From positions 6,138,001-6,202,000 of the forward strand of contig NW_025963924.1 of NCBI RefSeq assembly GCF_023055435.1: a DNA stretch of 64,000 nucleotides, read 5' to 3'. A program made the translations under genes and the position numbers. Shown here piece by piece: positions 5,736-31,853 of the stretch. The notes below the pieces were generated by a model, which worked only from the letters and a program-made list of their open reading frames with translations, was not told where the DNA came from and did no database searches. The DNA is from Haliotis rufescens (lineage: Eukaryota). Positions within the stretch are counted from its first letter, which is position 1. Each line of letters starts with the position of its first letter.

Positions 5736-5971
5736 TTATCTACACTCGCAGGCACGCAAATTTGCGTCAAAAATAGGGCTCCCCGGGTCGCAATTAGGAC
5801 ACACGCCAGTTTTGAGCAGTCGCTGATTAAGGCACTCAACGTAGTTACGAGAGTTGGGGCGATGTTCGTAGACGTTGAGGCCGTCGGCGAGGTTCCTACA
5901 GGTGGGGTTGTTGATGAAACAGGGTGGCCCACAGTCCTTGCCCCCAGCACACGCGTGCTGAGCATACTCGC
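5736..5971 (-). CDS. Gene B last exon: Cys-rich linker + C-terminal CBM14-like domain
   Basis: ttttcag|GC acceptor completes Cys codon (phase 1); CEYAQHACAGGKDCGPPCFINNPTCRNLADG...VECLNQRLLKTGVCPNCDPGSPIFDANLRACECR*; homologous to gene C exon 3; AATAAA at 5692-5697 (minus). Confidence 0.85.
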
Positions 5972-13290: not shown

Positions 13291-13403
13291 CAACCAACAC
13301 CATCAACGCATTCCTTCGATTAGTCTCAGAACATTTCGACCACCCCTCGTATGTCAATTCTCTTGGTTTCCATCAAGAAGAAGGGGGAGGCTAGGATACT
13401 TAC

Positions 13404-13655
13404 ATTTCCCCAGGGGCTCTGTCCTGTTGCCACACGTGACCATGCTGTAGTGTTCACATCTCTGTGTTTCAGGGTTGTACAACTCCGGGAAGGGACATTC
13501 CTGTAGGTTCTGTTCTAAGGTGGAACGATGTATTTTCATGGCGGGCGCACTACAGTTGTAGTACTGGGCACACATAGCCGGGTGGGGAATCAGTGTTTCC
13601 GTCGTCGTCTTGCAGATGGGGTTCACGTCGCCTGAGTCTAGAATGAATGCTGATG
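13404..13655 (-). CDS. Gene B CBM14 exon
   Basis: 252 nt, phase 1-1, ccag| and |GTAAGT; ICKTTTETLIPHPAMCAQYYNCSAP...QECPFPELYNPETQRCEHYSMVTC has six-Cys peritrophin-A spacing. Confidence 0.92.
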
Positions 13656-13749
13656 CTGGAACTGATGCAAAAAGTGACAGGTTTAAACCTAGTTTGTGAG
13701 TGACGAAGACTCTACCAGTGACGCCAAACTAACCACAGCCCTAAACCTA

Positions 13750-15858: not shown

Positions 15859-15919
15859 ATGAATCCAGGGCGGCCAGCAGCACCATCAGCAAGCACAACA
15901 CGCGACTCTCACACATCAT
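15859..15919 (-). CDS. Gene B signal-peptide exon (secreted chitin-binding protein, 182 aa total)
   Basis: MMCESRVLCLLMVLLAALDS, T|GTGAGC phase-1 donor; joins in frame with 13404-13655 and 5736-5971 (61+252+236=549 nt). Upstream acceptor ttttcttgtag at 15946/15945. Confidence 0.85.
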
Positions 15920-16228: not shown

Positions 16229-16403
16229 GGGGCGGTCGGGTAGCCTAGTGGTTAAAGCGTTCGCTTGCATTGTCACGCCGAAGACGCGGGTTCAATTCAC
16301 GACATGGGTACAATGTGTGAAGCCCATTTCTGGTGTCCCCCGCCGTGATATTGCTGGAATATTGCTAAAAGCGGAGTAAAACCATACTCACTCACTCACT
16401 CAC
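16229..16403 (+). mobile_element. SINE family 1 containing the array's left breakpoint
   Basis: 13-bp TSD tcatataccccga (16216-16228, 16404-16416); only its tail and right TSD recur at the junctions. Confidence 0.9.
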
Positions 16404-16931
16404 TCATATACCCCGACACAGACAAGTGTCAGCCATATACAGTGTGCATGCCTTGGAGAACTGAAGTTGAAACGGCGAATACAAAAGTATGTATTAAATA
16501 TAGTTGTTCCGATATGTTTTATATAAGTTAACTAACATACCACTACCATACTGGCGAATATTGATGTATCATACGATTACTCCGCACAACAAAACTACAC
16601 CCATAATATGGCTAAATATAAAATGACATCTGAGCGTCACTTTTAGTCAAATAAAAACAAAAACTAATCATTTTTTTTCAACGCTTTATGATTTCGTTAT
16701 CCATAAAATACACATTTTATAAAAGAGCAGAGTTCAAAGTGTGCACAATTGTTTATGTTGGTATTCTTGGCAAAGTCAAGAAAATAATAGATAGTGTCTT
16801 CCACTTTTGGTTTTTAATCAAATAATATAAAAATTCTACCTCTTTCCTCATTTTTTTTTTAAAAAAAGCATTAATTATTTTTATACAGCCAGGCATATAC
16901 CGTCTGGTACATAAAATGAATATTACCTTAC

Positions 16932-17052
16932 CTTCACAGCGCTATAACGGCTACAGGGCAGCGGCTTGTGGTAGATATGTTATACATCTCCCTCTTTAAA
17001 TGTAGGGTTTAAATACCAGGGTATATTTAGATATGGGAAATGCGCATGTGGT
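16932..17052 (-). promoter_or_regulatory. Gene B predicted core promoter and non-coding first exon
   Basis: GAAG|GTAAGG donor at 16932/16931 in the same position as gene A's donor; TATA-like TAAATATA/TATTTAAA; 33-bp block conserved with gene A. Confidence 0.6.
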
Positions 17053-17154
17053 TATCTGTAATTTCTGGTATGTATTAAAACTTGGTTTGAAAAAGGATAG
17101 CACCAGTTGCTTGGAATAATTTGTCGTATAATATATATAACATATGTATTAAGG

Positions 17155-17314
17155 TGAGTAAGTATGGTTTTACGCCGCTTTTAGCAATATTCCAGCAATA
17201 TCACGTCGGGGGACACCAGAAATGGGCTTCACACATTGTACCCATGTCGGGAATCGAACCCAGGTATTCGGCGTGACGAGCGAACGCTTTACCACTAGAC
17301 TACCCGACCGCCCC
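17155..17314 (-). mobile_element. SINE family 1 (copied into each unit; further copies about 21577-21740, 50580-50733, 57925-58085, 63683-63856)
   Basis: TSD tatgtattaagg; A/B boxes. Confidence 0.9.
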
Positions 17315-17962
17315 TATGTATTAAGGAGTATAAAGGATGAATATGAGGATAAGAACAAGGGTTGGTACTTCTTTCAAGTAATTATCTTTAGATAATTCAT
17401 AAATTCTGTTCAACGCCAATATCTAAATTAAAGCATTTGTTATAAACATCTTTGTTAAAAAGCGAAGTGTTTGGATCCCAAGGTTTCAGGAGCTGCACAA
17501 AAATTACTCATAAATGTGTTTTGTTCTCGCATTTCAAACTATCACCTTGATGTCGAACGCCAGGCTGAGAAACAACAAGTAGTATCTTTAAAGGTCTTTG
17601 ATGTGACGCGGCCGTGAATCCAACCACCATCATTTCGCTCCCCGGCAGACACTCTATCCGTTAGACCACGGAGGCGGTCCGCTATTAACTGGAATGTCCC
17701 ATATGTATTAGGATTGCGTGTCATCGTGTTCCACCTCAAAGGACATACACATATTGTTATCTGAACAACAGATACATTTGTTGATGTGCAGGGTTGGTTT
17801 GTTGTTTTACGCCGCACTCAGCGATAGTTGATGCGCAGGGATAGCTAGTCTGTGGTGTAGAGCCCAAGCTACATACACGCAGGGGCACATGCACTACCAA
17901 CCGCACGCACACGTCTATTGTTATGATGCGACCAGGAGCCGAAGCATTGGCCTTCTACTCTC

Positions 17963-18913
17963 GAGGCAGACGCGCTATCCACTATTCCACGAAGGCGGTC
18001 TCAGACAGACGCGCTATCCACTACACCACGAAGGCGGTTTCAGGCAGACGCGCTATCCACTACACCACGAAGGCGGTCTCAGGCAGACGCGCTATCCACT
18101 ACCCCATGAAGGCGGTCTCAGGCAGACACTCTATCCACTACACCACGAAGGCGTTCTCAGGCAGACCCGCTTTCCACTACCCCACGAAGGCGGTCTCAGG
18201 TAGATGCGCTATCCACTACCCCACGAAGGCGGTCTCAGGCAGACGCGCTATCCACTACCCCACGAAGGCGTTCTCAGGCAGATGCGCTATCCACTACACC
18301 ACGAAGGCGGTCTCAGGCAGAAGCTCTATCCACTACACTATGAAGGCGGTCTCAAGCAGACGCGCTATCCACTACCCCACCAAGGTGGTCTCAGGCAGAC
18401 GCGCTATCCACTACACCACGAAGGCGGTCTCAGGCAGACGCTCTATCCACTACCCCACGAAGGCGGTCTCAGGCAGACGCTCTATCCACTACACCACGAG
18501 GGCGGTCTCAGGCAGACTCTCTATCCACTACACCACGAAGGCGGTCTCAGGCAGACGCGCCTCAACTACCCCACGAAGGCGGTCTCAGGCAGACGCGCTA
18601 TCCACTACCCTACAAAGGCGGTCTCAGGCAGACACTCTATCTACTACCCCAAGAAGGCGGTCTCAGGCAGACGCGCTATCGACTACCCCACGAAGGCGGT
18701 CTCAGGCAGACGCGCTATCCACTACCCCACGAAGGCGGCCTCAGGCAGATGCGCTGTCCACTACACCACAAAGGCGGTCTCAGGCAGACGCGCTATCCAC
18801 TACACCAAGAAGGCGGTCTCAGGCAGACGCGCTATCCACTACACCACGAAGGTGGTCTCAGGCAGACGCGCTATCCATTACCCCACGAAGGCGGTCTCAG
18901 ACAGACGTGCTAT
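17963..18913. repeat. 39-bp minisatellite (about 24 units; about 6 units at 34162-34412)
   Basis: Unit aggcagacgcgctatccactacaccacgaaggcggtctc. Confidence 0.95.
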
Positions 18914-19239
18914 CAAAGCAATAAAACAGAGGCTGATGACTTCAGTCTGGTGCGTGCATTAAATTCAGCACCATATGGTCTCGACAACTATCGTGTATGT
19001 TGAACATCCGTCACTGGCTACTTTATAACTTACCACTGACAGGAATATGGCCTCATAAAAACAAGTATGAAAGTTTGCATTAGTGTTGTTCCCACTAAAT
19101 AGGACGTCACTGACAGCTGCCTACTTTGTGCTGAGTCGTGATGCGTGTAGGTTTACCATTCAAACAAAGAGAGGGTGTTGGTGCACCAATAGCAGTCCTC
19201 ATATATGCGTACAAATGAAGAGATTGTTGTTAAGTGAAA

Positions 19240-20460
19240 GAGGTGAGTAAGTCGGTAGGTGAGGAAGTTTGGTTGGTATGAGTGAGGGAGTGAGTGAGGG
19301 AGGGAATGGGTTAATGGTTGAGTGAGTGAGTGGCTGGGTGGGGTGGTTGGTTGGTTGAGTGGATGGTTGAGTGAGTGAGTGAGTGGGTGGGTGGATGGGT
19401 GGGTGGGTGTTATTTGGTGGGTGGGTTTTATGGTTGAGTGGTTGGTTGAGTGAGTGAGTAGGTGGGTGGATGGGTGGTATGGTTGAGTGGTTGGTTGAGT
19501 TAGTGAGTGTTAGGGTGGGTGGTATGGTTGAGTGGTTGGTTGAGTAAGTGAGTGGGCGGGTGGGTGGGTGGGTGGTATGATTGAGTGGTTGGTTGAGTAA
19601 GTGAGTAGGTAGGTGGGTGGTATGGTTGAGTGAGTGAGTGGGTGGTATGTTTGAGCGGTTGGTTGGTTAAGTGAGTGAGTGGGTGGTATGTTTGAGCGGT
19701 TGGTTGGTTAAGTGAGTGAGTGGGTGGGTTGGTTGGTTTTATGGTTGAGTGGTTGGTTGAATGAATGAGTAGGTGGGTGTGTGGTATGGTTGAGTGGCTG
19801 GTTGGTTAAGTGAGTGAGTGGGTGGGTGGTTGTGTTTTATGGTTGAGTGGTTTGTTGAGTGAGTGTGTAGGTGGGTGGATGGGTGAGTGAGTGGGTGGTT
19901 GGGTGTTATTGTTGAGTGGTTGGTTGGTTGAATGAGTGGGTGGGTGGATAGGTGGTTGGAGGGTATGGTTGAGTGGTTGGTTGGTTAAGTGAGATAGTGA
20001 GTGAGTGATTGGGTTGGTGGGTGGTATTGTTGAGTGGTTGGTTGAGTTAGTGAGTAGGTGGGTGGGTGGGTGGTATGTTTGAGCGGTTGGTTGGTTAAGT
20101 GAGTGAGTGGGTGGTATGTTTGAGCGGTTGGTTGGTTAAGTGAGTGAGTGGGTGGGTTGGTTGGTTTTATGGTTGAGTGGCTGGTTGGTTAAGTGAGTGA
20201 GTGGGTGGGTGGTTGTGTTTTATGGTTGAGTGGTTTGTTGAGTGAGTGAGTAGGTGGGGGGATGGGTGAGTGTGTGGGTGGTTGGGTATTATTATTGAGT
20301 GGTTGTTTGGTTGAATGAGTGGGTGGGTGGTATGGTTGAGTGGTTGGTTGCTTAAGTGAGTGAGTGAGTGATTGGACGGATGGGTGGTATTTGGTATGAT
20401 TGAGTGGTTGAATAAGTGAGTGGGTTGATTGGTGAATGAATGGGTGGGTTGGTAACTTGA
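19240..20460. repeat. Complex (GAGT/GGGT/GGTT)n satellite (also about 26245-27330, 34740-36080, 42720-43860)
   Basis: C-poor, G/T-rich tetramer mosaic downstream of each C gene. Confidence 0.95.
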
Positions 20461-20595
20461 TTTGAGTAACATATCACAGTAGGAATAAGAAGATATTTTG
20501 CACAGTGTATCCGAGACGCTACCCCCTTGCTGACACTACAAGATAGAATGTGATTGGTTAATAGACACCGAGAAAAGACATAATTGGTAGAAATA

Positions 20596-20601
20596 TTTAT
20601 T
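20596..20601 (-). terminator. Candidate polyadenylation signal of C1 (alternative AATAAA at 20938-20943)
   Basis: AATAAA about 650 nt past the stop, conserved in all four units. Confidence 0.45.
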
Positions 20602-21251
20602 CAATCAAGCATATTTGCAACATAAATAGAATAAAAGAATAAAACCCGAATCCGCTGGGGAATTGAGTTTAGATTTACAATCAAATTACACAACACTGTT
20701 AACACAACACACAAACACAACACATTGATCATAATTACAAGGATTCAGAAATAAATAAACCGGGTGTTTATACCGGCTGCAATGGGACTTACAGAGTTAG
20801 TGTGTACACATTCAATGACGGGCAGGTCAATACTTCAAGTGTTTAATACAAGCTTGGTACCATACAGAACACAATATTGTTCACAAACTCCAATATAATT
20901 TAGGCAACAGACGGTTTTCATGGTAATGACTTAAATTTTTATTCACGTAAAATCACAAAGACTCTAGAAATCCTATTTAGGACGCGCATTTGTTAAATTT
21001 GATTCCTTGAACACATGAAAGAAACTTGAATGTCTAAATTTGGATTTCTAAATGGCCACAACCAGTTATAGAATACGCTGAAGAAGTCCGGGAATGTGTA
21101 AAGGAAATTCCGGACTGCGGCACAAAAGTCCATCATCACGTGACCCCGAGGTGAATATGACTGCCAAATAAGGAATGACCAATCATGAAACAGGAAGTTC
21201 AGAAACAGTACCAAGTGCAAGAAATTGAGAAAGTTTTTCATCTTCATTACT

Positions 21252-21484
21252 TCAAGCAGTCCGCGCAACGCACATCCTCTTGGCTTGATCGAAGATCTGT
21301 GGTCCGTTCTTCTGGTTGCACGTACCCGAATACACCATCCGTCCACCCACACACACGACGAAGTAGGGAAAGTCTTCCCTACCCACCCAGTGGTTCAAGC
21401 CGTCGGGAAGACCCTTGCAACTTGGGTAGCGCACCATGCAGGGCATGCAGTGAGCAGACAGGCACTGGTTCGCACGGTAGTCGC
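21252..21484 (-). CDS. Gene C1 exon 3 (Cys linker + third CBM14-like domain)
   Basis: gacag|GC; CDYRANQCLSAHCMPCMVRYPSCKGLPDGLNHWVGREDFPYFVVCVGGRMVYSGTCNQKNGPQIFDQAKRMCVARTA*. Confidence 0.92.
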
Positions 21485-22516
21485 CTGTCAGAAAGAGAGA
21501 GTGAATGAGTAAATGAGTGATTTGACACTGCTTTGAACAGTCTTTCAGTTATATCACGTCGTGTCAGCTTGACATGAGAGTGAGTGAGTATGTTTTGCGC
21601 CGCTTTTAGCACTATTCCAGCACTATCACGGCGGGGGACACCAGAAATGGGCTTCACACATTGTACCAATGTCGAGAATCGAACCCGGGTCTTCGGCGTG
21701 ACGAACGAATGCTTTTACCACTAGGCTACCCGACCGCCCCTGCTTGACATGAGAGGAAATCCCCTTAGGTCTTACACGTTTACCACTTTGGTAAAACCCA
21801 CGAGCACGGGTATGGTGCTGACAAACTTAGAAACATTATCAGGGCGAACCTGGATTCGATCAAAGGTTTCTGGCACGCCTAAGCGACGCAACCCTGCAAA
21901 ATGCGGCGCATTTGGCGTCTAACCACCCGTCCCCACTACCAGTTTACAGCTACAGGTTCGTTATAAGCGTGTTCGTTATAAACGTAGTTTACTGTAATGT
22001 GAGTAAGAAAGTGAATAAGTGAGATGCCGTTTTAAGCAATTCCAGCCAGGGCAGAGAAACTGAGGTGAAGTTAGTGGAACCTTAATCAATGGTCGTGGAT
22101 TTCAAAGCAGAATAGAACCCAAGCACTTTATAACAGCCGAGTGTCGACCAATCTGGTTGTTCCAATGCCTCCCCGAGTAAGAGTACTGGAGTGAGTGAGT
22201 GAGTTGGGTTTAACGCCGCTTTTAACAGTATTCCAGTAATCCAGTTATATCGCGGCGTGTAAGCTTAATGTGGGAGGAAAGCCCGAAGTGATGCAGGTCT
22301 AAGACGTTTATCGCTTCGGTGAAACCCACGAGCACGGGTATGGTGCTGACAAACCTAGAAACATAATCGGGGCGAACCGGGATTCGAACCCACAATCATA
22401 GGTTTCTGGCGTGTTCAAGGGACGCAACTCTGCACAGCGAATCGCGGCGCCTTAGACGACTGGGCCACCCGTGCCCCCCTTTCCGGTATGAATGGCATGG
22501 TTAATGGTATACTCAC

Positions 22517-22750
22517 ACTGACTGATGGCTTCGACTCTCTCACCACACTTCACCATGGTGTAGTGCTCGCACCGCTTAGTGATGACGTTGTAAAACTGGG
22601 GGTAGGGGCACTCGCTCAGATGTTCTGGCCACCTGAACCTTGTCGGAGCAGAGCAGTTGTAGTACTGGGCACAGTTGGTGGGGTGGGGGATCAAGGCACG
22701 GGACTCTGGAAGACAGATGACCGTCTCCGCTCGGGTGTCCTTCTTGGTAC
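22517..22750 (-). CDS. Gene C1 exon 2 (CBM14)
   Basis: 234 nt, phase 1-1; ICLPESRALIPHPTNCAQYYNCSAPTRFRWPEHLSECPYPQFYNVITKRCEHYTMVKC. Confidence 0.93.
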
Positions 22751-22919
22751 CTGGCGAACAATATTCATAATTTGTAATCAAATATATCTTCTTTTTTTAA
22801 TTACCCGATGGGGTGAGTGTTTATCTCACAGGCACATGTGCCTCCATATATGAAGCAATCGCCAAACGGGTTTTCCTGTTAAGTGATGTTTCCGTTCTAA
22901 TTTGGATTCATAAAAAGGG

Positions 22920-23150
22920 TATTCCGGATTACATGATTTCCGGATTATCAAGGTTTATGGACTGACATGTAATTCGGACTAACGGGGGTCCGTACTATCA
23001 AGGCTTCCGGAATGACCTGGAATCCGGATTGACGGGAGTCCGGACTTTCAAGGTTTCTGGAAGGACATGGAATCCGGATTGCCGGGTTCCCGGATTAACA
23101 AGGTGTCCGGAATGTCGGGGGTTCCAGATAAACAAGGTTACGGACTAGTT
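22920..23150. repeat. Degenerate about 20-bp CCGGA repeat, probably MITE-internal (longer in C3/C4, ending ...TTCACTG|TA near 39072)
   Basis: Periodic tccggatt/ccggact motifs. Confidence 0.6.
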
Positions 23151-23845
23151 AGGTTTCTTATTAGTCCCGGGGCAAGTCCTGCATAACTGCTGTAACCTGA
23201 AATATATCACTGTCATGTACAACGACTCTCGGCGGGGTCGCACCTCGGCGACAGGGACGACTGACAGTGTACACAACTGCGCCGCCTCGACTTTATTCTC
23301 AGCTAAGACGTTGTCGAAATAACGCTGACATGCAGCAGCGACGACGACGAGGATTGACGTTGCATCACACAAGTCTTACTCTTTTAAAGCATTTCGCGGT
23401 TTGCTGACAAGAACATTTAAATAAATTATTGCCGTGCAGCGTCAGCTGTGCGTTGTAGCACATTTGTTTTGGGCCGGCTGTCATATTTCGTATTAAGTAT
23501 AAAGTACTTGCAATATACTGCCCGCTTGAGCGAAGATGTTTTGTGTCAGTTTTGTTCTGATTTTTATATCACCTTGGCTGAGCTTTAGATAACAAAGAGC
23601 ATTAGTATCTTGGCTTTGAGAAGAAGTTGTCGGTCGCTCGGTTTTTGTACATGATTATTGGTAGATTTCCTAAAGTAACCTTTATTTACATTCAAGATAC
23701 AAATTGTATTTTAAAGAAGTAGATTACACTCTCGTCTTTTCACTAACTGCATCGGAAAAATCTATTATATTTCAAGAAGGCCAGTAAGTGAAATCAAATT
23801 TAACTTTGAACTTGATGTTTCAGCCAATTCCTGTAAATAAGCAAG

Positions 23846-24148
23846 GTTTAACATCGCTTTTAGCAATATTTCAGTGAGATCGTGGATGGTTTAGCATCGC
23901 TTTTAGCAATATTTCAGTGAGATCGCGGATGGTATAACATCGCTTTTAGCAATATTTCAGTGAGATCGTGGATGATTTAACATCGCTTTTAGCAATATTT
24001 CAGTGAGATCGTGGATGGTTTAACATCGCTTTTAGCAATATTTCAGTGAGATTGCAGATGGTTTAACATCGCTTTCAGCAATATTTCAGTGAGATCGCGG
24101 ATGGTTTAACATCGCTTTTAGCAATATTTTAGTAAGATCGTGGATGGT
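23846..24148. repeat. 43-bp tandem repeat in C intron 1 (7, 6, 7, 10 units in C1-C4; 31028-31290, 40320-40622, 48164-48586)
   Basis: Unit ggtttaacatcgcttttagcaatatttcagtgagatcgcggat. Confidence 0.93.
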
Positions 24149-24482
24149 ACCAGGAGCGAACTTTAACCTGGGTACCCACATCATGACTAGAACCCCTCGA
24201 CGTGACGAGTGAACGCTTCAACCACAGGCCTACCCAACTGCCCATATATCTCGGTAAACGAAGATGGAATCGATGCTTTGTAAATTTATCAAATCTTCTG
24301 ATTATAGTGAGTGAGTGTGGTTTTACGCCGCTTTTAATAATATCCCACAAATATCACACGGGGGACACCAGCTTAACACCATTTAGGGCATCGAACCCGG
24401 GCATTCGGCTTGATAGAGAACTACTTAACCACTTGGCTACCCCGCCACCCTCTGAATATCGAGTTTAATACACAGTACTTAC

Positions 24483-24711
24483 AATTGTCGTAGATGGATC
24501 CCTGGCCGACGCATGTTTTGGTCTCGGGGTCGAACACGCTGTTTGAACAGTTGAACTTGTACAGGATCTCATTGGTGCACACATAGAAGACCGAACAGTC
24601 ATCGGGATCTGGTCTGAAGTCGGGGTTGCCTTTAACCACACAACTACCCACTGATGTTGAAGCGGTTGCCATGGCCACGATTAAGCAAGCGAGTACAATT
24701 CGAAATGCCAT
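24483..24711 (-). CDS. Gene C1 exon 1 (signal peptide + CBM14); secreted 3x chitin-binding protein, 231 aa
   Basis: ACCATGG context; MAFRIVLACLIVAMATAS then CVVKGNPDFRPDPDDCSVFYVCTNEILYKFNCSNSVFDPETKTC; T|GTAAG donor; 229+234+233=696 nt open. Confidence 0.93.
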
Positions 24712-28140: not shown

Positions 28141-28373
28141 TCAAGCAGTCCGCTCAACGCACATCCTCTTGGCTTGATCGAAGAACTGTGGTCCGTTCTC
28201 CTGGTTGCACAAACCCGAATACACCATCCGTCCACCCTCACACACGACGAAGTAGGGTGAGTCTTCCCTGCCCACCCAGTGGTTCAAGCCGTCGGGAAGA
28301 CCCTTGCAACTTGGGAAGCGCACCATGCAGGGGATACAGTGAGCAGCCAGGCACTGGTTCGCACGGTAGTCGC
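28141..28373 (-). CDS. Gene C2 exon 3
   Basis: Paralog of 21252-21484 with intact acceptor and stop; CDYRANQCLAAHCIPCMVRFPSC...CVERTA*. Confidence 0.92.
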
Positions 28374-29699
28374 CTGTAAGAAAGAGAGAGTGAATGAGTG
28401 AGTGAGTGTTCTGACTGCTTTGAACAGTTTTTTAGTTATATCACGTCGTGGCAGCTTGACATGAGAGTGAGTGAGTATGGTTTAACGCCGCTTTTAGCAC
28501 TATTCCAGCAATATCACGGCGGGGGACACCAGAAATGGGCTTCAAACATTGTACCCATGTCGAGAATCGAACCCAGGTCTTCGGCGTGACGAACGAATGC
28601 TTTAACCACTAGGCTACCCGACCGCCCCTGCTTGACATGAGAGGAAATCCCCTTAGGTCTTACTCGTTTACCACTTTGGTAAAACCCACGAGCACGGGTA
28701 TGGTGCTGACAAACTTAGAAACATTATCAGGGCGAAACTGGATTCGATCATAGGTTTCTGGCACGCCTAAGCGACGCAACCCTGCAAAATGCGGCGCATT
28801 TGGCGTCTAACCACCCGTCCCCACTACCAGTTTACAGCTACAGGTGTCTCCTGTCGAAGACACGCTCGGGCAAGGCAGATCAGAAATATATACAGCTTAG
28901 TCCTTATTCCGCACATTGTACCCATGTGGGAATCGAAGCCGGCCTTTGGCTTGACGAGTGATCGCTTTTACCACTAGACTACCCGCCGCCCCGGAACCAT
29001 ATACAGTAAAATACGGTTATAACGAACTCAAAGGGACCATTAATTTTAGTTCGTAACAACCGTAGTTCGTTATAAGCATATATACAGCATATATGCAACA
29101 AATGGCCGGGACTAAAACATATGTTCGTTATATCGGTCAGTTCGTTATAAGCGTGTTCGTTATAAACGTAGTTTACTGTAATGTGAGTAAGAAAGTGAAT
29201 AAGTGAGATGCCGTTTTAAGCAATTCCAGCCAGGGCAGAGAAACTGAGGTGAAGTTAGTGGAACCTTAATCAATGGTCGTGGATTGCAAAGCAGAATAGA
29301 ACCAAGCACTTTATAACAGCCGAGTGTCGACCAATCTGGTTGTTTCAATGCCTCCCCGAGTATGAGTACTGGAGTGAGTGAGTGAGTTGGGTTTAACGCC
29401 GCTTTTAACAGTATTCCAGTAATCCAGTTATATCGCGGCGTGTAAGCTTAATGTGGGAGGAAAGCCCGAAGTGATGCAGGTCTCAGACGTTTATCACTTC
29501 GGTGAAACCCACGAGCACGGGTATGGTGCTGACAAACCTAGAAACATAATCGGGGCGAACCGGGATTCGAACCCACAATCATAGGTTTCTGGCGTGTTCA
29601 AGGGACGCAACTCTGAACAGCGAATCGCGGCGCCTTAGACGACTGGGCCACCCGTGCCCCCCTTTCCGGTATGAATGGCATGGTTAATGGTATACTCAC

Positions 29700-29933
29700 A
29701 GTGACTGATGGCTTCGACTCTCTCACCACACTTCACCATGGTGTAGTGCTCGCACCGCTTAGTGATGACGTTGTAAAACTGGGGGTAGGGGCACTCGCTC
29801 AGATGTTCTGGCCACCTGAACCTTGTCGGAGCAGAGCAGTTGTAGTACTGGGCACAGTTGGTGGGGTGGGGGATCAAGGCACGGGACTCTGGAAGACAGA
29901 TGACCGTCTCCGCTCGGGTGTCCTTCTTGGTAC
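29700..29933 (-). CDS. Gene C2 exon 2 (CBM14)
   Basis: Paralog of 22517-22750, splice sites intact. Confidence 0.93.
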
Positions 29934-31624
29934 CTGGCGAACAATATTCATAATTTGTAATCAAATATATCTTCTTTTTTTAATTACCCGATGGGGTGAG
30001 TGTTTATCTCACAGGCACATGTGCCTCCATATATGAAGCAATCGCCAAACGGGTTTTCCTGTTAAGTGATGTTTCCGTTCTAATTTGGATTCATAAAAAG
30101 GGTATTCCGGATTACATGATTTCCGGATTATCAAGGTTTATGGACTGACATGTAATTCGGACTAACGGGGGTCCGTACTATCAAGGCTTCCGGAATGACC
30201 TGGAATCCGGATTGACGGGAGTCCGGACTTTCAAGGTTTCTGGAAGGACATGGAATCCGGATTGCCGGGTTCCCGGATTAACAAGGTGTCCGGAATGTCG
30301 GGGGTTCCAGATAAACAAGGTTACGGACTAGTTAGGTTTCTTATTAGTCCCGGGGCAAGTCCTGCATAACTGCTGTAACCTGAAATATATCACTGTCATG
30401 TACAACGACTCTCGTCGGTGTCGCACCTCGGCGACAGGGACGACTGACAGTGTACACAACTACGCCGCCTCGACTTTATTCTCAGCTAAGACGTTGTCGA
30501 AATAACGCTGACATGCAGCAGCGACGACGACGAGGATTGACGTTGCATCACACAAGTCTTACACTTTTAAAGCATTTCGCGGTTTGCTGACAAGAACATT
30601 TAAACAAATTATTGCCGTGCAGCGTCAGCTGTGCGTTGTAGCACATTTGTTTTTGGCCGGCTGTCATATTTCGTATTAAGTATAAAGTACTTGCAATATA
30701 CTGCCCGCTTGAGCGAAGATGTTTTGTGTCAGTTTTGTTCTGATTTTTATATCACCTTGGCTGAGCTTTAGATAACAAAGAGCATTAGTATCTTGGCTTT
30801 GAGAAGAAGTTGTCGGTCGCTCGGTTTCTGTACATGATTATTGGTAGATTTCCTAAAGTAACCTTTATTTACATTCAAGATACAAATTGTATTTTAAAGA
30901 AGTAGATTACACTCTCGTCTTTTCACTAACTGCATCGGAAAAATCTATTATATTTCAAGAAGGCCAGTAAGTGAAATCAAATTTAACTTTGAACTTGATG
31001 TTTCAGCCAATTCCTGTAAATAAGCAAGTTTTAACATCACTTTTAGCAATATTTCAGTGAGATCGCGGATGGTATAACATCGCTTTTAGCAATATTTCAG
31101 TGAGATCGTGGATGATTTAACATCGCTTTTTTCGCAATATTTCAGTGAGATCGTGGATGGTTTAACATCGCTTTTAGCAATATTTCAGTGAGATTGCAGA
31201 TGGTTTAACATCGCTTTCAGCAATATTTCAGTGAGATCGCGGATGGTTTAACATCGCTTTTAGCAATATTTCAGTAAGATCGTGGATGGTACCAGGAGCG
31301 AACTTTAACCTGGGTACCCACATCATGACTAGAACCCTTCGACGTGACGAGTGAACGCTTCAACCACAGGCCTACCCAACTGCCCATATATCTCGGTACA
31401 CGAAGATGGAATCGATGCTTTGTAAATTTATCAAATCTTCTGATTATAGTGAGTGAGTGTGGTTTTACGCCGCTTTTAATAATATCCCACAAATATCACA
31501 CGGGGGACACCAGCTTAACACCATTTAGGGCATCGAACCCGGGCATTCGGCTTGATAGAGAACTACTTAACCACTTGGCTACCCCGCCACCCTCTGAATA
31601 TCGAGTTTAATACACAGTACTTAC

Positions 31625-31853
31625 AATTGTCGTAGATGGATCCCTGGCCGACGCATGTTTTGGTCTCGGGGTCGAACACGCTGTTTGAACAGTTGAACTT
31701 GTACAGGATCTCATTGGTGCACACATAGAAGACCGAACAGTCATCGGGATCTGGTCTGAAGTCGGGGTTGCCTTTAACCACACAACTACCCACTGATGTT
31801 GAAGCGGTTGCCATGGCCACGATTAAGCAAGTGAGTACAATTCGAAATGCCAT
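31625..31853 (-). CDS. Gene C2 exon 1 (signal peptide + CBM14)
   Basis: Paralog of 24483-24711 (A8T in signal peptide). Confidence 0.93.

What the first reader, a model, noticed from the sequence alone, without database searches (positions are those of the whole stretch)
21252..21570. Divergence hotspot in the third chitin-binding exon of C1
By-eye C1 vs C2 comparison: 13 nucleotide differences in 233 bp, giving 9 amino-acid changes (S/A, M/I, Y/F, F/S, V/E, T/L, K/E, I/F, A/E) and 2 purely silent codon changes. The adjacent 600 bp of 3'UTR differ at about one site, and exons 1 and 2 by one residue each. Three changes introduce Glu (net charge about -4) and three affect aromatics, the residue class that contacts chitin; all Cys are kept. 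Caveat: divergence continues about 80 bp into the intron, so an old haplotype or conversion tract could explain it with or without selection.
Basis: partly seen in the sequence, partly recalled or inferred. Interest (0 to 1): 0.7.

Follow-up and report, generated by a model that had tools for sequence, protein, structure and literature searches.

The report
Old unconverted patch in abalone gene
One of four side-by-side copies of an abalone gene differs from its neighbours in one exon, likely because that patch is an old version that escaped the copying-over that keeps the copies alike and not because it evolved fast, which is ordinary for tandem gene arrays.

Summary
The counts are right (13 differences in 233 bp, 9 residue changes, 1 difference in 629 bp of 3'UTR) and the clustering exceeds chance. 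The reading as a selected hotspot is not supported. The window holds four tandem 7-9 kb units (C1-C4) of a Haliotis gene for a 231-aa protein with three peritrophin-A (CBM14)-type modules. The divergent tract runs 21265-21716 and is equally divergent in exon (13/233) and intron (12/210). C1's intergenic flank 4 kb away is similarly divergent (43/1009). So exon 3 shows the background age of the C1 unit, and the UTR and upstream gene are the recently homogenised parts. dN/dS is 1.14 (p=0.52). A second species label carries 9-10 of the 13 C1 letters, and H. cracherodii mixes both types, so the two versions are old. Glu is ancestral: C1 lacks it. Only Met168 and Lys213 are unique to the C1 type. 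C1 is real, spliced and seen in independent runs. Selection keeping the patch distinct is not excluded (+4 charge; Ser193Phe at a conserved site). Chitin binding by module 3 is unproven.

The parts
21252..21484 (-). C1 exon 3: Cys-rich linker plus third, 4-Cys CBM14-like module and stop codon
   Evidence: Splice sites found by exact match to protein P0008; RNA contigs identical over 21000-21484 with a loose end reading into exon 2
22517..22750 (-). C1 exon 2 (second CBM14 module)
24483..24711 (-). C1 exon 1 (inferred signal peptide and first CBM14 module)
   Evidence: hydrophobic N-terminus, helix 3-13 in the model; no signal-peptide predictor was run
21265..21716 (.). Old unconverted tract: C1-private sites across exon 3 and the first 230 bp of intron 2
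   Evidence: 25/436 differences C1 vs C2; site list
20636..21264 (.). Recently homogenised patch covering most of the 3'UTR and the last codons
   Evidence: 1/629 differences C1 vs C2
16386..17427 (.). Intergenic outer end of the C1 repeat unit, as divergent from C2-C4 as exon 3 is
   Evidence: 42-44/977 vs the other three units, 36 C1-private sites; units 2-4 differ among themselves by 7-13/977
17437..20624 (.). Further downstream flank of C1; alignable non-repeat parts about 3% from C2/C3
   Evidence: 14/457, 10/315, 5/170 and 6/162; tandem repeats in between were not compared
21578..21741 (.). Interspersed repeat (SINE-like; label inferred) in intron 2, shared by all four copies and used to polarise changes
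   Evidence: Against a consensus of 14 other copies: 4 changes C1-only, 3 shared by C2-C4 only, 4 shared by all
21955..21956 (.). Site where C1 lacks about 296 bp present in C2-C4; possible barrier to conversion
   Evidence: it cuts through a repeat that continues in the retained part, so a deletion in C1 is inferred
22732..23200 (.). Second divergent tract, almost wholly in intron 1, grouping C1+C2 against C3+C4
   Evidence: C1 vs C2 0/315, C1 or C2 vs C3 or C4 17/315
28141..31853 (-). Copy C2 (exons 31853-31625, 29933-29700, 28373-28141)
   Evidence: protein P0009
36890..41186 (-). Copy C3 (exons 41186-40958, 38558-38325, 37122-36890)
   Evidence: protein P0011
44667..49064 (-). Copy C4 (exons 49064-48836, 46458-46225, 44899-44667)
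   Evidence: protein P0010
16386..49532 (.). Tandem array of four units, starting at about 16386, 25192, 32356 and 41669
   Evidence: self-BLAST, junctions

Best explanation
Exon 3 of C1 lies in a 450-bp patch that differs from the other three copies about as much as C1's intergenic flank does, so it is likely a remnant of an old paralogue lineage that escaped gene conversion and unequal crossing-over, while the 3'UTR and the upstream part of the gene were likely overwritten more recently. Shown: the mosaic of tracts, the equal exon and intron divergence, the sharing of C1 letters with another species label, and spliced RNA contigs of the C1 type. Inferred: two lineages (C1 type and C2-4 type) split before the 4.3 Ma radiation of eastern Pacific abalones; C1 is the outermost unit, so crossovers would replace its inner part (21.7-25.2 kb) and leave its outer part; a separate conversion of about 630 bp over the UTR cut exon 3 off from the rest of the old part and made it look like an island; a 296-bp deletion in C1 intron 2 may hinder conversion from that side; T209 and I218 may have come by a short conversion from the paralogue C0. 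The protein is predicted to be secreted, with three disulfide-bonded CBM14-fold modules, most likely an extracellular chitin-associated matrix protein (about 55%; untested). The nine differences mostly fall at variable positions under weak constraint, and would change module 3 surface charge without changing its predicted fold.
For: Divergence of C1 from C2-C4 along its unit: 4.3% at 16386-17427, about 3% at 17437-20624, 0.2% in the UTR, 5.7% in the tract, 1.3% at 21717-22520, 0.5-0.7% upstream; tract vs outer flank Fisher p=0.35. Exon vs intron within the tract p=1.0 or 0.70. Another 5.4% tract lies in intron 1 with a different grouping. Repeat polarisation gives 4 vs 3 changes on the two branches, so C1 is not accelerated. 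dN/dS 1.14, p=0.52. Organism B (2 of 2 runs laid, two studies) has the C1 letter at 9 (X19) or 10 (X16) of the 13 sites and the C2 letter at the rest, while its UTR is only 1.3-2.2% from the window (12/210 vs 10/465 p=0.02, vs 5/397 p=0.003). H. cracherodii P0005 has C1-type Q154, S164, Y174 and C2-type residues at the other 7 sites. Tract edges move between individuals: 21265 has the C2 letter in all contigs of X5 and X14, and X18 has a piece with C1-type 21444 and C2-type 21458. C0 shares a 124-bp perfect run with exon 1 and a 50-bp run with one mismatch around T209-I218. Models of C1 and C2 have identical secondary structure, mean pLDDT 87.
Against: The tract is bounded by homogenised DNA on both sides, which is also the published signature of selection against conversion (PMC3924837, PMC2588116). 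The nine changes avoid all 23 highly conserved positions of exon 3 (p=0.03), so purifying selection still acts, and an overall dN/dS near 1 then implies a raised rate at the free sites. 18 of 21 variable coding sites among C1-C4 are non-synonymous: compatible with neutrality (p=0.32) but not with the long-term dN/dS of 0.29 of exon 2 (p=0.001). F193 replaces a residue that is Ser or Thr in 73 of 81 homologues. The tract (5.7%) is somewhat more divergent than the about 3% flank segments nearest to it. The direction of each conversion was not determined, and no calibrated simulation of island formation was run.
Confidence: 0.72

Rival explanations
1. Selection keeps two functional versions of module 3 apart: conversion of the C1 exon is removed by selection, leaving a peak of divergence (Teshima-Innan model), perhaps around F193/V200 and the +4 charge shift.
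For: Island flanked by homogenised DNA. C1 type present in all 5 of 5 organism-A runs laid (runs were chosen for holding it, so this is biased). Conversion reaches 21265 but not 21296 in X5 and X14. F193 at a conserved site. Charge +4 vs 0. Exon 3 also has higher dN/dS than exon 2 in the deep C0 comparison, 0.77 vs 0.29, though p=0.10-0.16.
Against: Intergenic flank similarly divergent. No excess of dN over dS or over intron divergence. Organism B contigs show only the C1-type 3' half and the one H. cracherodii orthologue found only the C2 type, which suggests that a species can do with one type, although contigs cannot prove absence. Recombinants inside the exon exist.
Confidence: 0.15
2. The C1 unit or tract entered by hybridisation from another abalone species.
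For: Organism B shares most C1 letters and the A/E228 variation.
Against: B's UTR is only 1.3-2.2% from the window, too little to supply a 4-6% divergent unit. H. cracherodii carries C1-type Q154 and S164 together with C2-type L209 and F218, which points to both lineages being older than these species.
Confidence: 0.07
3. A recent burst of positive selection on chitin-contacting residues in C1.
For: 10.5 non-synonymous vs 2.5 synonymous differences; C1 vs C3 dN/dS 2.1.
Against: Neither ratio is significant (p=0.52, 0.41). Only M168 and K213 are absent from every non-organism-A sequence with a clearly different UTR. Y174 and I218 in C1 match the outgroups. The position two after the last Cys, where CHIT1 has its chitin-binding Trp465 (PMC4844120), is Ala or Glu here (equivalence by counting, inferred).
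Confidence: 0.04
4. Assembly or sequencing error, or an uncollapsed allele.
For: Contig depth ratios of C1 type to C2-4 type are about 1:2 (X5) and 1:1.5 (X1), not 1:3, so the number of C2-type copies may vary or be overstated; depth of contigs is a poor copy measure.
Against: C1-type contigs with 0 differences in an independent DNA run (X5) and RNA-like runs of three studies (X6, X9, X14), beside C2-type contigs in X5, X14, X1 and X18.
Confidence: 0.02

Closest known systems
Concerted evolution of tandem duplicates with local peaks of divergence (human red/green opsin exon 5; Drosophila CG18281/CG17637) (PMC3924837, PMC2588116; passages read)
   Same: A divergent coding patch between tandem copies with homogenised DNA on both sides.
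   Different: In those cases the flanking introns are homogenised and the peak is maintained in both species compared. Here the adjacent intron and the outer intergenic flank are as divergent as the exon, and the other species seen carry mixed single types.
CBM14 / peritrophin-A domain family (Pfam PF01607; tachycitin, CHIT1 chitin-binding domain, Der p 23)
   Same: The whole protein passes the Pfam cut-off (58 bits vs 22.1); module 3 aligns to Der p 23 (Z 5.7, rmsd 2.1, 48 residues) and the CHIT1 domain (Z 5.2, rmsd 3.0, 54 residues).
   Different: Module 3 has four Cys, is preceded by a conserved Cys-rich linker, falls below the cut-off on its own, and has no aromatic residue after its last Cys.
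EHEP of Aplysia kurodai, 229 aa, three peritrophin-A domains, binds phlorotannin/tannic acid and not chitin (bioRxiv 10.1101/2023.06.04.543649; passages read)
   Same: Same size and domain count; best PDB match by family profile (E=1.5e-16), Foldseek (E=7e-6) and VIA (Z 6.1).
   Different: 19-21% identity; not found by single-sequence search at E<=10; domain arrangement does not superpose (rmsd 18, TM 0.2; model pTM only 0.60); the profile match covers modules 1-2 only, not exon 3.
Pif/BMSP shell matrix proteins, with CBM14 plus CBM14-like domains (PMC11291548; passages read)
   Same: A CBM14 domain followed by a degenerate CBM14-like domain in a mollusc protein.
   Different: No VWA or laminin-G part here, and no VWA match in 25 of 25 longer homologues scanned.

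Membership tests
CBM14 / peritrophin-A (PF01607) | Whole protein scores above the Pfam gathering cut-off | tested here: met
   58.4 bits vs 22.1 for C1, two stretches
CBM14 / peritrophin-A (PF01607) | Exon-3 module on its own scores above the cut-off | tested here: not met
   C2 peptide 16.9 bits, C1 peptide no match at E<=0.1
CBM14 / peritrophin-A (PF01607) | Exon-3 module has the CBM14 beta-sandwich fold | tested here: met
   Model residues 173-227 align to Der p 23, Z 5.7, rmsd 2.1 over 48 residues; block pLDDT 91-96 over residues 161-230; Z is moderate
CBM14 / peritrophin-A (PF01607) | Binds chitin | not testable with these tools
   No assay; EHEP and Der p 23 share the fold and do not bind chitin
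EHEP-type polyphenol-binding proteins | Three peritrophin-A domains in a protein of about 230 aa | tested here: met
EHEP-type polyphenol-binding proteins | Triangular domain arrangement with central ligand cavity | tested here: inconclusive
   rmsd 18 to EHEP, but the domain arrangement in the model is uncertain, pTM 0.60
EHEP-type polyphenol-binding proteins | Present in digestive fluid and precipitates phlorotannin | not testable with these tools
   Tissue of the RNA runs is not given
Pif/BMSP shell matrix proteins | VWA domain upstream of the CBM14 domains | tested here: not met
   Only PF01607 found
Selection-maintained divergence peak (Teshima-Innan signature) | Divergent patch flanked on both sides by converted DNA | tested here: met
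   0.2% and 0.5-1.3% on the two sides
Selection-maintained divergence peak (Teshima-Innan signature) | No equally divergent neutral tracts in the same duplicated block | tested here: not met
   4.3% intergenic flank and 5.4% intron-1 tract
Selection-maintained divergence peak (Teshima-Innan signature) | Excess of non-synonymous fixed differences | tested here: inconclusive
   dN/dS 1.14, p=0.52, low power with 13 sites
Selection-maintained divergence peak (Teshima-Innan signature) | Both types kept as paralogues at the same place in a second species | tested here: inconclusive
   Organism B contigs show one type and H. cracherodii one annotated orthologue; contigs cannot show absence

The most novel reading that the evidence does not exclude
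Two versions of module 3, one neutral with Ser193 and one basic (+4) with Phe193, have been kept apart by selection against gene conversion since before the eastern Pacific abalones radiated, in an expanded family of EHEP-like secreted proteins; the versions would bind different ligands, such as chitin forms or kelp phlorotannins.
Probability: 0.1. Interest if true: 0.55.

Novelty: new member of a known kind. Interest (0 to 1): 0.2.

Why it matters
As the ordinary reading, it is a clean teaching case: an apparent exon hotspot disappears once the whole repeat unit is compared, because the low-divergence neighbours are the recently changed parts. It also shows that variant calls on this array would mix paralogues. 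If selection does hold the two module-3 types apart, the pair would be a natural experiment on what degenerate CBM14 modules bind in a kelp-grazing mollusc, a question opened by EHEP.

Tried and rejected
Donor search: the genome holds 5 matches to exon 3 among 5 candidates scored; C0 is not the donor of the whole tract, being no closer to C1 (35 mismatches) than to C2 (32). Local mutation hotspot: rejected, since the intron repeat has 7-8 changes per copy from its consensus with even branch lengths. A search for short fragments of other species found no candidate, so no extra coding DNA for a site model was obtained; H. cracherodii and H. asinina were available as protein only. Pif/BMSP link: no VWA in 25 of 25 longer homologues scanned, a hand-picked part of the 150 listed. 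Mapping the nine sites onto the model surface could not be done because model coordinates are not delivered to the script box. Absolute dating (20-23 Ma, interval 10-38; repeat only 15 Ma, 6-30) uses a pedigree mutation rate and is rough; I rely only on it exceeding 4.3 Ma. Columns in tandem repeats and poorly aligned stretches (23795-24260, 23025-23135, 20620-20636, beyond 25200) were dropped before the counts. Table 3 left 15 rows unshown, so private changes in organisms B and C may be undercounted. Literature: no paper names the locus identifiers; searches gave none on this array; only open full texts were searched and no supplements were opened, which may list these genes. Earlier findings of the scan: none returned. 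No complex prediction was run.

Full report
Setting. The window is G000:C146:6138001-6202000. It holds four tandem units of 7-9 kb starting near 16386, 25192, 32356 and 41669, each with a three-exon gene on the minus strand (C1-C4). Their spliced products match, letter for letter, four 231-aa proteins that NCBI names as uncharacterized Haliotis rufescens proteins LOC124146563, LOC125383477, LOC125383478 and LOC124146565. A fifth, more distant paralogue, C0 (LOC124146562), lies about 18-22 kb left of the window. In the 184 kb examined, exon 3 gave 18 tblastn matches in all, so the array sits in a larger cluster.

The observation. The UTR differs at 1 of 629 sites. The clustering is real: 25 differences in 450 columns against a null maximum of 20 in 20,000 placements. 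The tract, however, runs from 21265 to 21716, about 230 bp into intron 2, and exon and intron are equally divergent (13/233 vs 12/210, p=1.0; 15/230 with looser filtering, p=0.70).

It is not an error. Eight of 24 listed runs were laid, all as contigs. An independent DNA run (X5) has C1-type contigs with no differences beside C2-type contigs. RNA-like runs X6 and X9 have contigs identical to C1 over 21000-21484; X6 and X14 show loose ends that read into exon 2, so the copy is spliced (the RNA label is the tool's guess). Runs were picked for holding the C1 words, so they give no frequency.

The patch is old, and its neighbours are the changed parts. Along its unit C1 differs from the other copies by 4.3% at 16386-17427 (intergenic), about 3% at 17437-20624, 0.2% in the UTR, 5.7% in the tract, 1.3% at 21717-22520 and 0.5-0.7% further upstream. 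At the intergenic end 36 sites are private to C1 while units 2-4 differ by 7-13 of 977. A second tract of 5.4% in intron 1 groups C1+C2 against C3+C4. In the intron repeat, changes fall 4 on the C1 branch and 3 on the other. This is the mosaic expected from unequal crossing-over and conversion in an array whose outermost unit keeps its old outer part (established model, from my own knowledge; application inferred). C1 also lacks about 296 bp at 21955, and large indels are named as barriers to conversion in PMC3924837 (passage).

Other species. Organism B (X16, X19) has the C1 letter at 9-10 of the 13 sites and the C2 letter at 21311, 21427 and 21444; 21265 varies between its two runs. Its UTR is 1.3-2.2% from the window, less than the tract divergence (p=0.02 and 0.003). 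H. cracherodii P0005 has C1-type Q154, S164, Y174 and C2-type residues at the other seven sites. Both are mixtures, which implies that both lineages existed before these species split; the eastern Pacific ancestor is dated at 4.3 Ma (bioRxiv 10.1101/2024.09.16.613283, passages). Single-base parallel changes could mimic part of this. Organism C (X18) has a UTR identical to the window and shows both types, a Met codon at 209 as in H. asinina, and a piece mixing C1 and C2 letters; what this label stands for is unknown. Glu at 200, 213 and 228 is ancestral. T209 and I218 match C0 within a 50-bp run, and C0 shares a 124-bp perfect run with exon 1, so short conversions from C0 are plausible.

Selection. 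dN/dS for C1 vs C2 in exon 3 is 1.14 (10.5/179.7 vs 2.5/48.3; p=0.52), and 2.08 vs C3 (p=0.41). Results against the neutral reading: the changes avoid the 23 most conserved positions (p=0.03); 18 of 21 variable coding sites among the four copies are non-synonymous, which rejects the long-term exon-2 ratio of 0.29 (p=0.001) but not neutrality (p=0.32); Phe193 stands where 73 of 81 homologues have Ser or Thr; the module's charge moves from 0 to +4; and an island between converted flanks is the published signature of selection against conversion (PMC3924837 and PMC2588116, passages). Relaxed constraint in redundant copies explains these as well as positive selection does, and 13 sites give little power.

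The protein. It passes Pfam CBM_14 as a whole, while exon 3 alone does not. AlphaFold models of C1 and C2 (83-row alignments) have mean pLDDT 87, pTM 0.60 and the same secondary structure. Module 3 aligns to Der p 23 and the CHIT1 chitin-binding domain. The best overall PDB match is EHEP of Aplysia, a three-domain protein that binds tannins and not chitin (bioRxiv 10.1101/2023.06.04.543649, passages), at 19-21% identity and without overall superposition. The position equivalent by counting to CHIT1 Trp465 (PMC4844120, passages) is residue 228, Ala or Glu. I judge an extracellular chitin-associated matrix role most likely (about 55%), an EHEP-like tannin-binding role possible (about 15%), both untested. 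Peritrophin-A genes are mentioned in abalone virus-response and pigmentation work (PMC9327721, PMC13544226; passages), with no link shown to this locus. PMC11291548 was read in passages. Other papers were seen as search listings only, and no supplements were opened.

Verdict. A real, expressed, old variant of exon 3 preserved in a mosaic tandem array: an ordinary product of concerted evolution (0.72), with a modest chance that selection helps to keep it (0.15). New member of a known kind; interest 0.2.

Noticed in passing
G000:C146:6058001-6242000 (L006-L017 and window): Large cluster of related CBM14 genes: 18 exon-3 and 16 exon-2 matches in 184 kb, including a duplicated block about 26 kb apart and two copies with a stop codon in the exon-2 match (contig 6071648 and 6097733).
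   Followed up: partly
window 5739-5969, 13396-13680, 15860-15919: A two-module paralogue with a long intron holding a 53-bp tandem repeat; 85-96% identical to H. cracherodii P0028.
   Followed up: partly
window 24483-24711 and C0 exon 1 (L009): Exon 1 of the distant paralogue C0 shares a 124-bp perfect run with C1 and C4 and only 8-12 mismatches in 229 bp, against 34-35 in exon 2; a sign of recent conversion between old paralogues.
   Followed up: partly
window 21265: The Ala/Glu228 site varies both among organism-A runs (G in X1, X6, X9; T in X5, X14) and between the two organism-B runs.
   Followed up: partly
window 21252-49064: Contig depths suggest fewer C2-type copies than the three assembled (about 1:2 in X5, 1:1.5 in X1), a weak hint of copy-number variation.
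   Followed up: no
window 22517-24711 and equivalents in C2-C4: All 7 variable sites in exons 1 and 2 among the four copies change a residue; none is silent.
   Followed up: partly
window 17959-18914, 23845-24148, 19243-20434: Tandem repeats of 39 bp, 43 bp and GGTT/GAGT type vary in copy number between units (24.5 vs 6.5 copies; 6-9.8 copies).
   Followed up: no
P0015 (H. rubra protein): The H. rubra orthologue loses similarity within exon 3 after the first linker cysteines, as if frameshifted; error or true pseudogene not checked.
   Followed up: no
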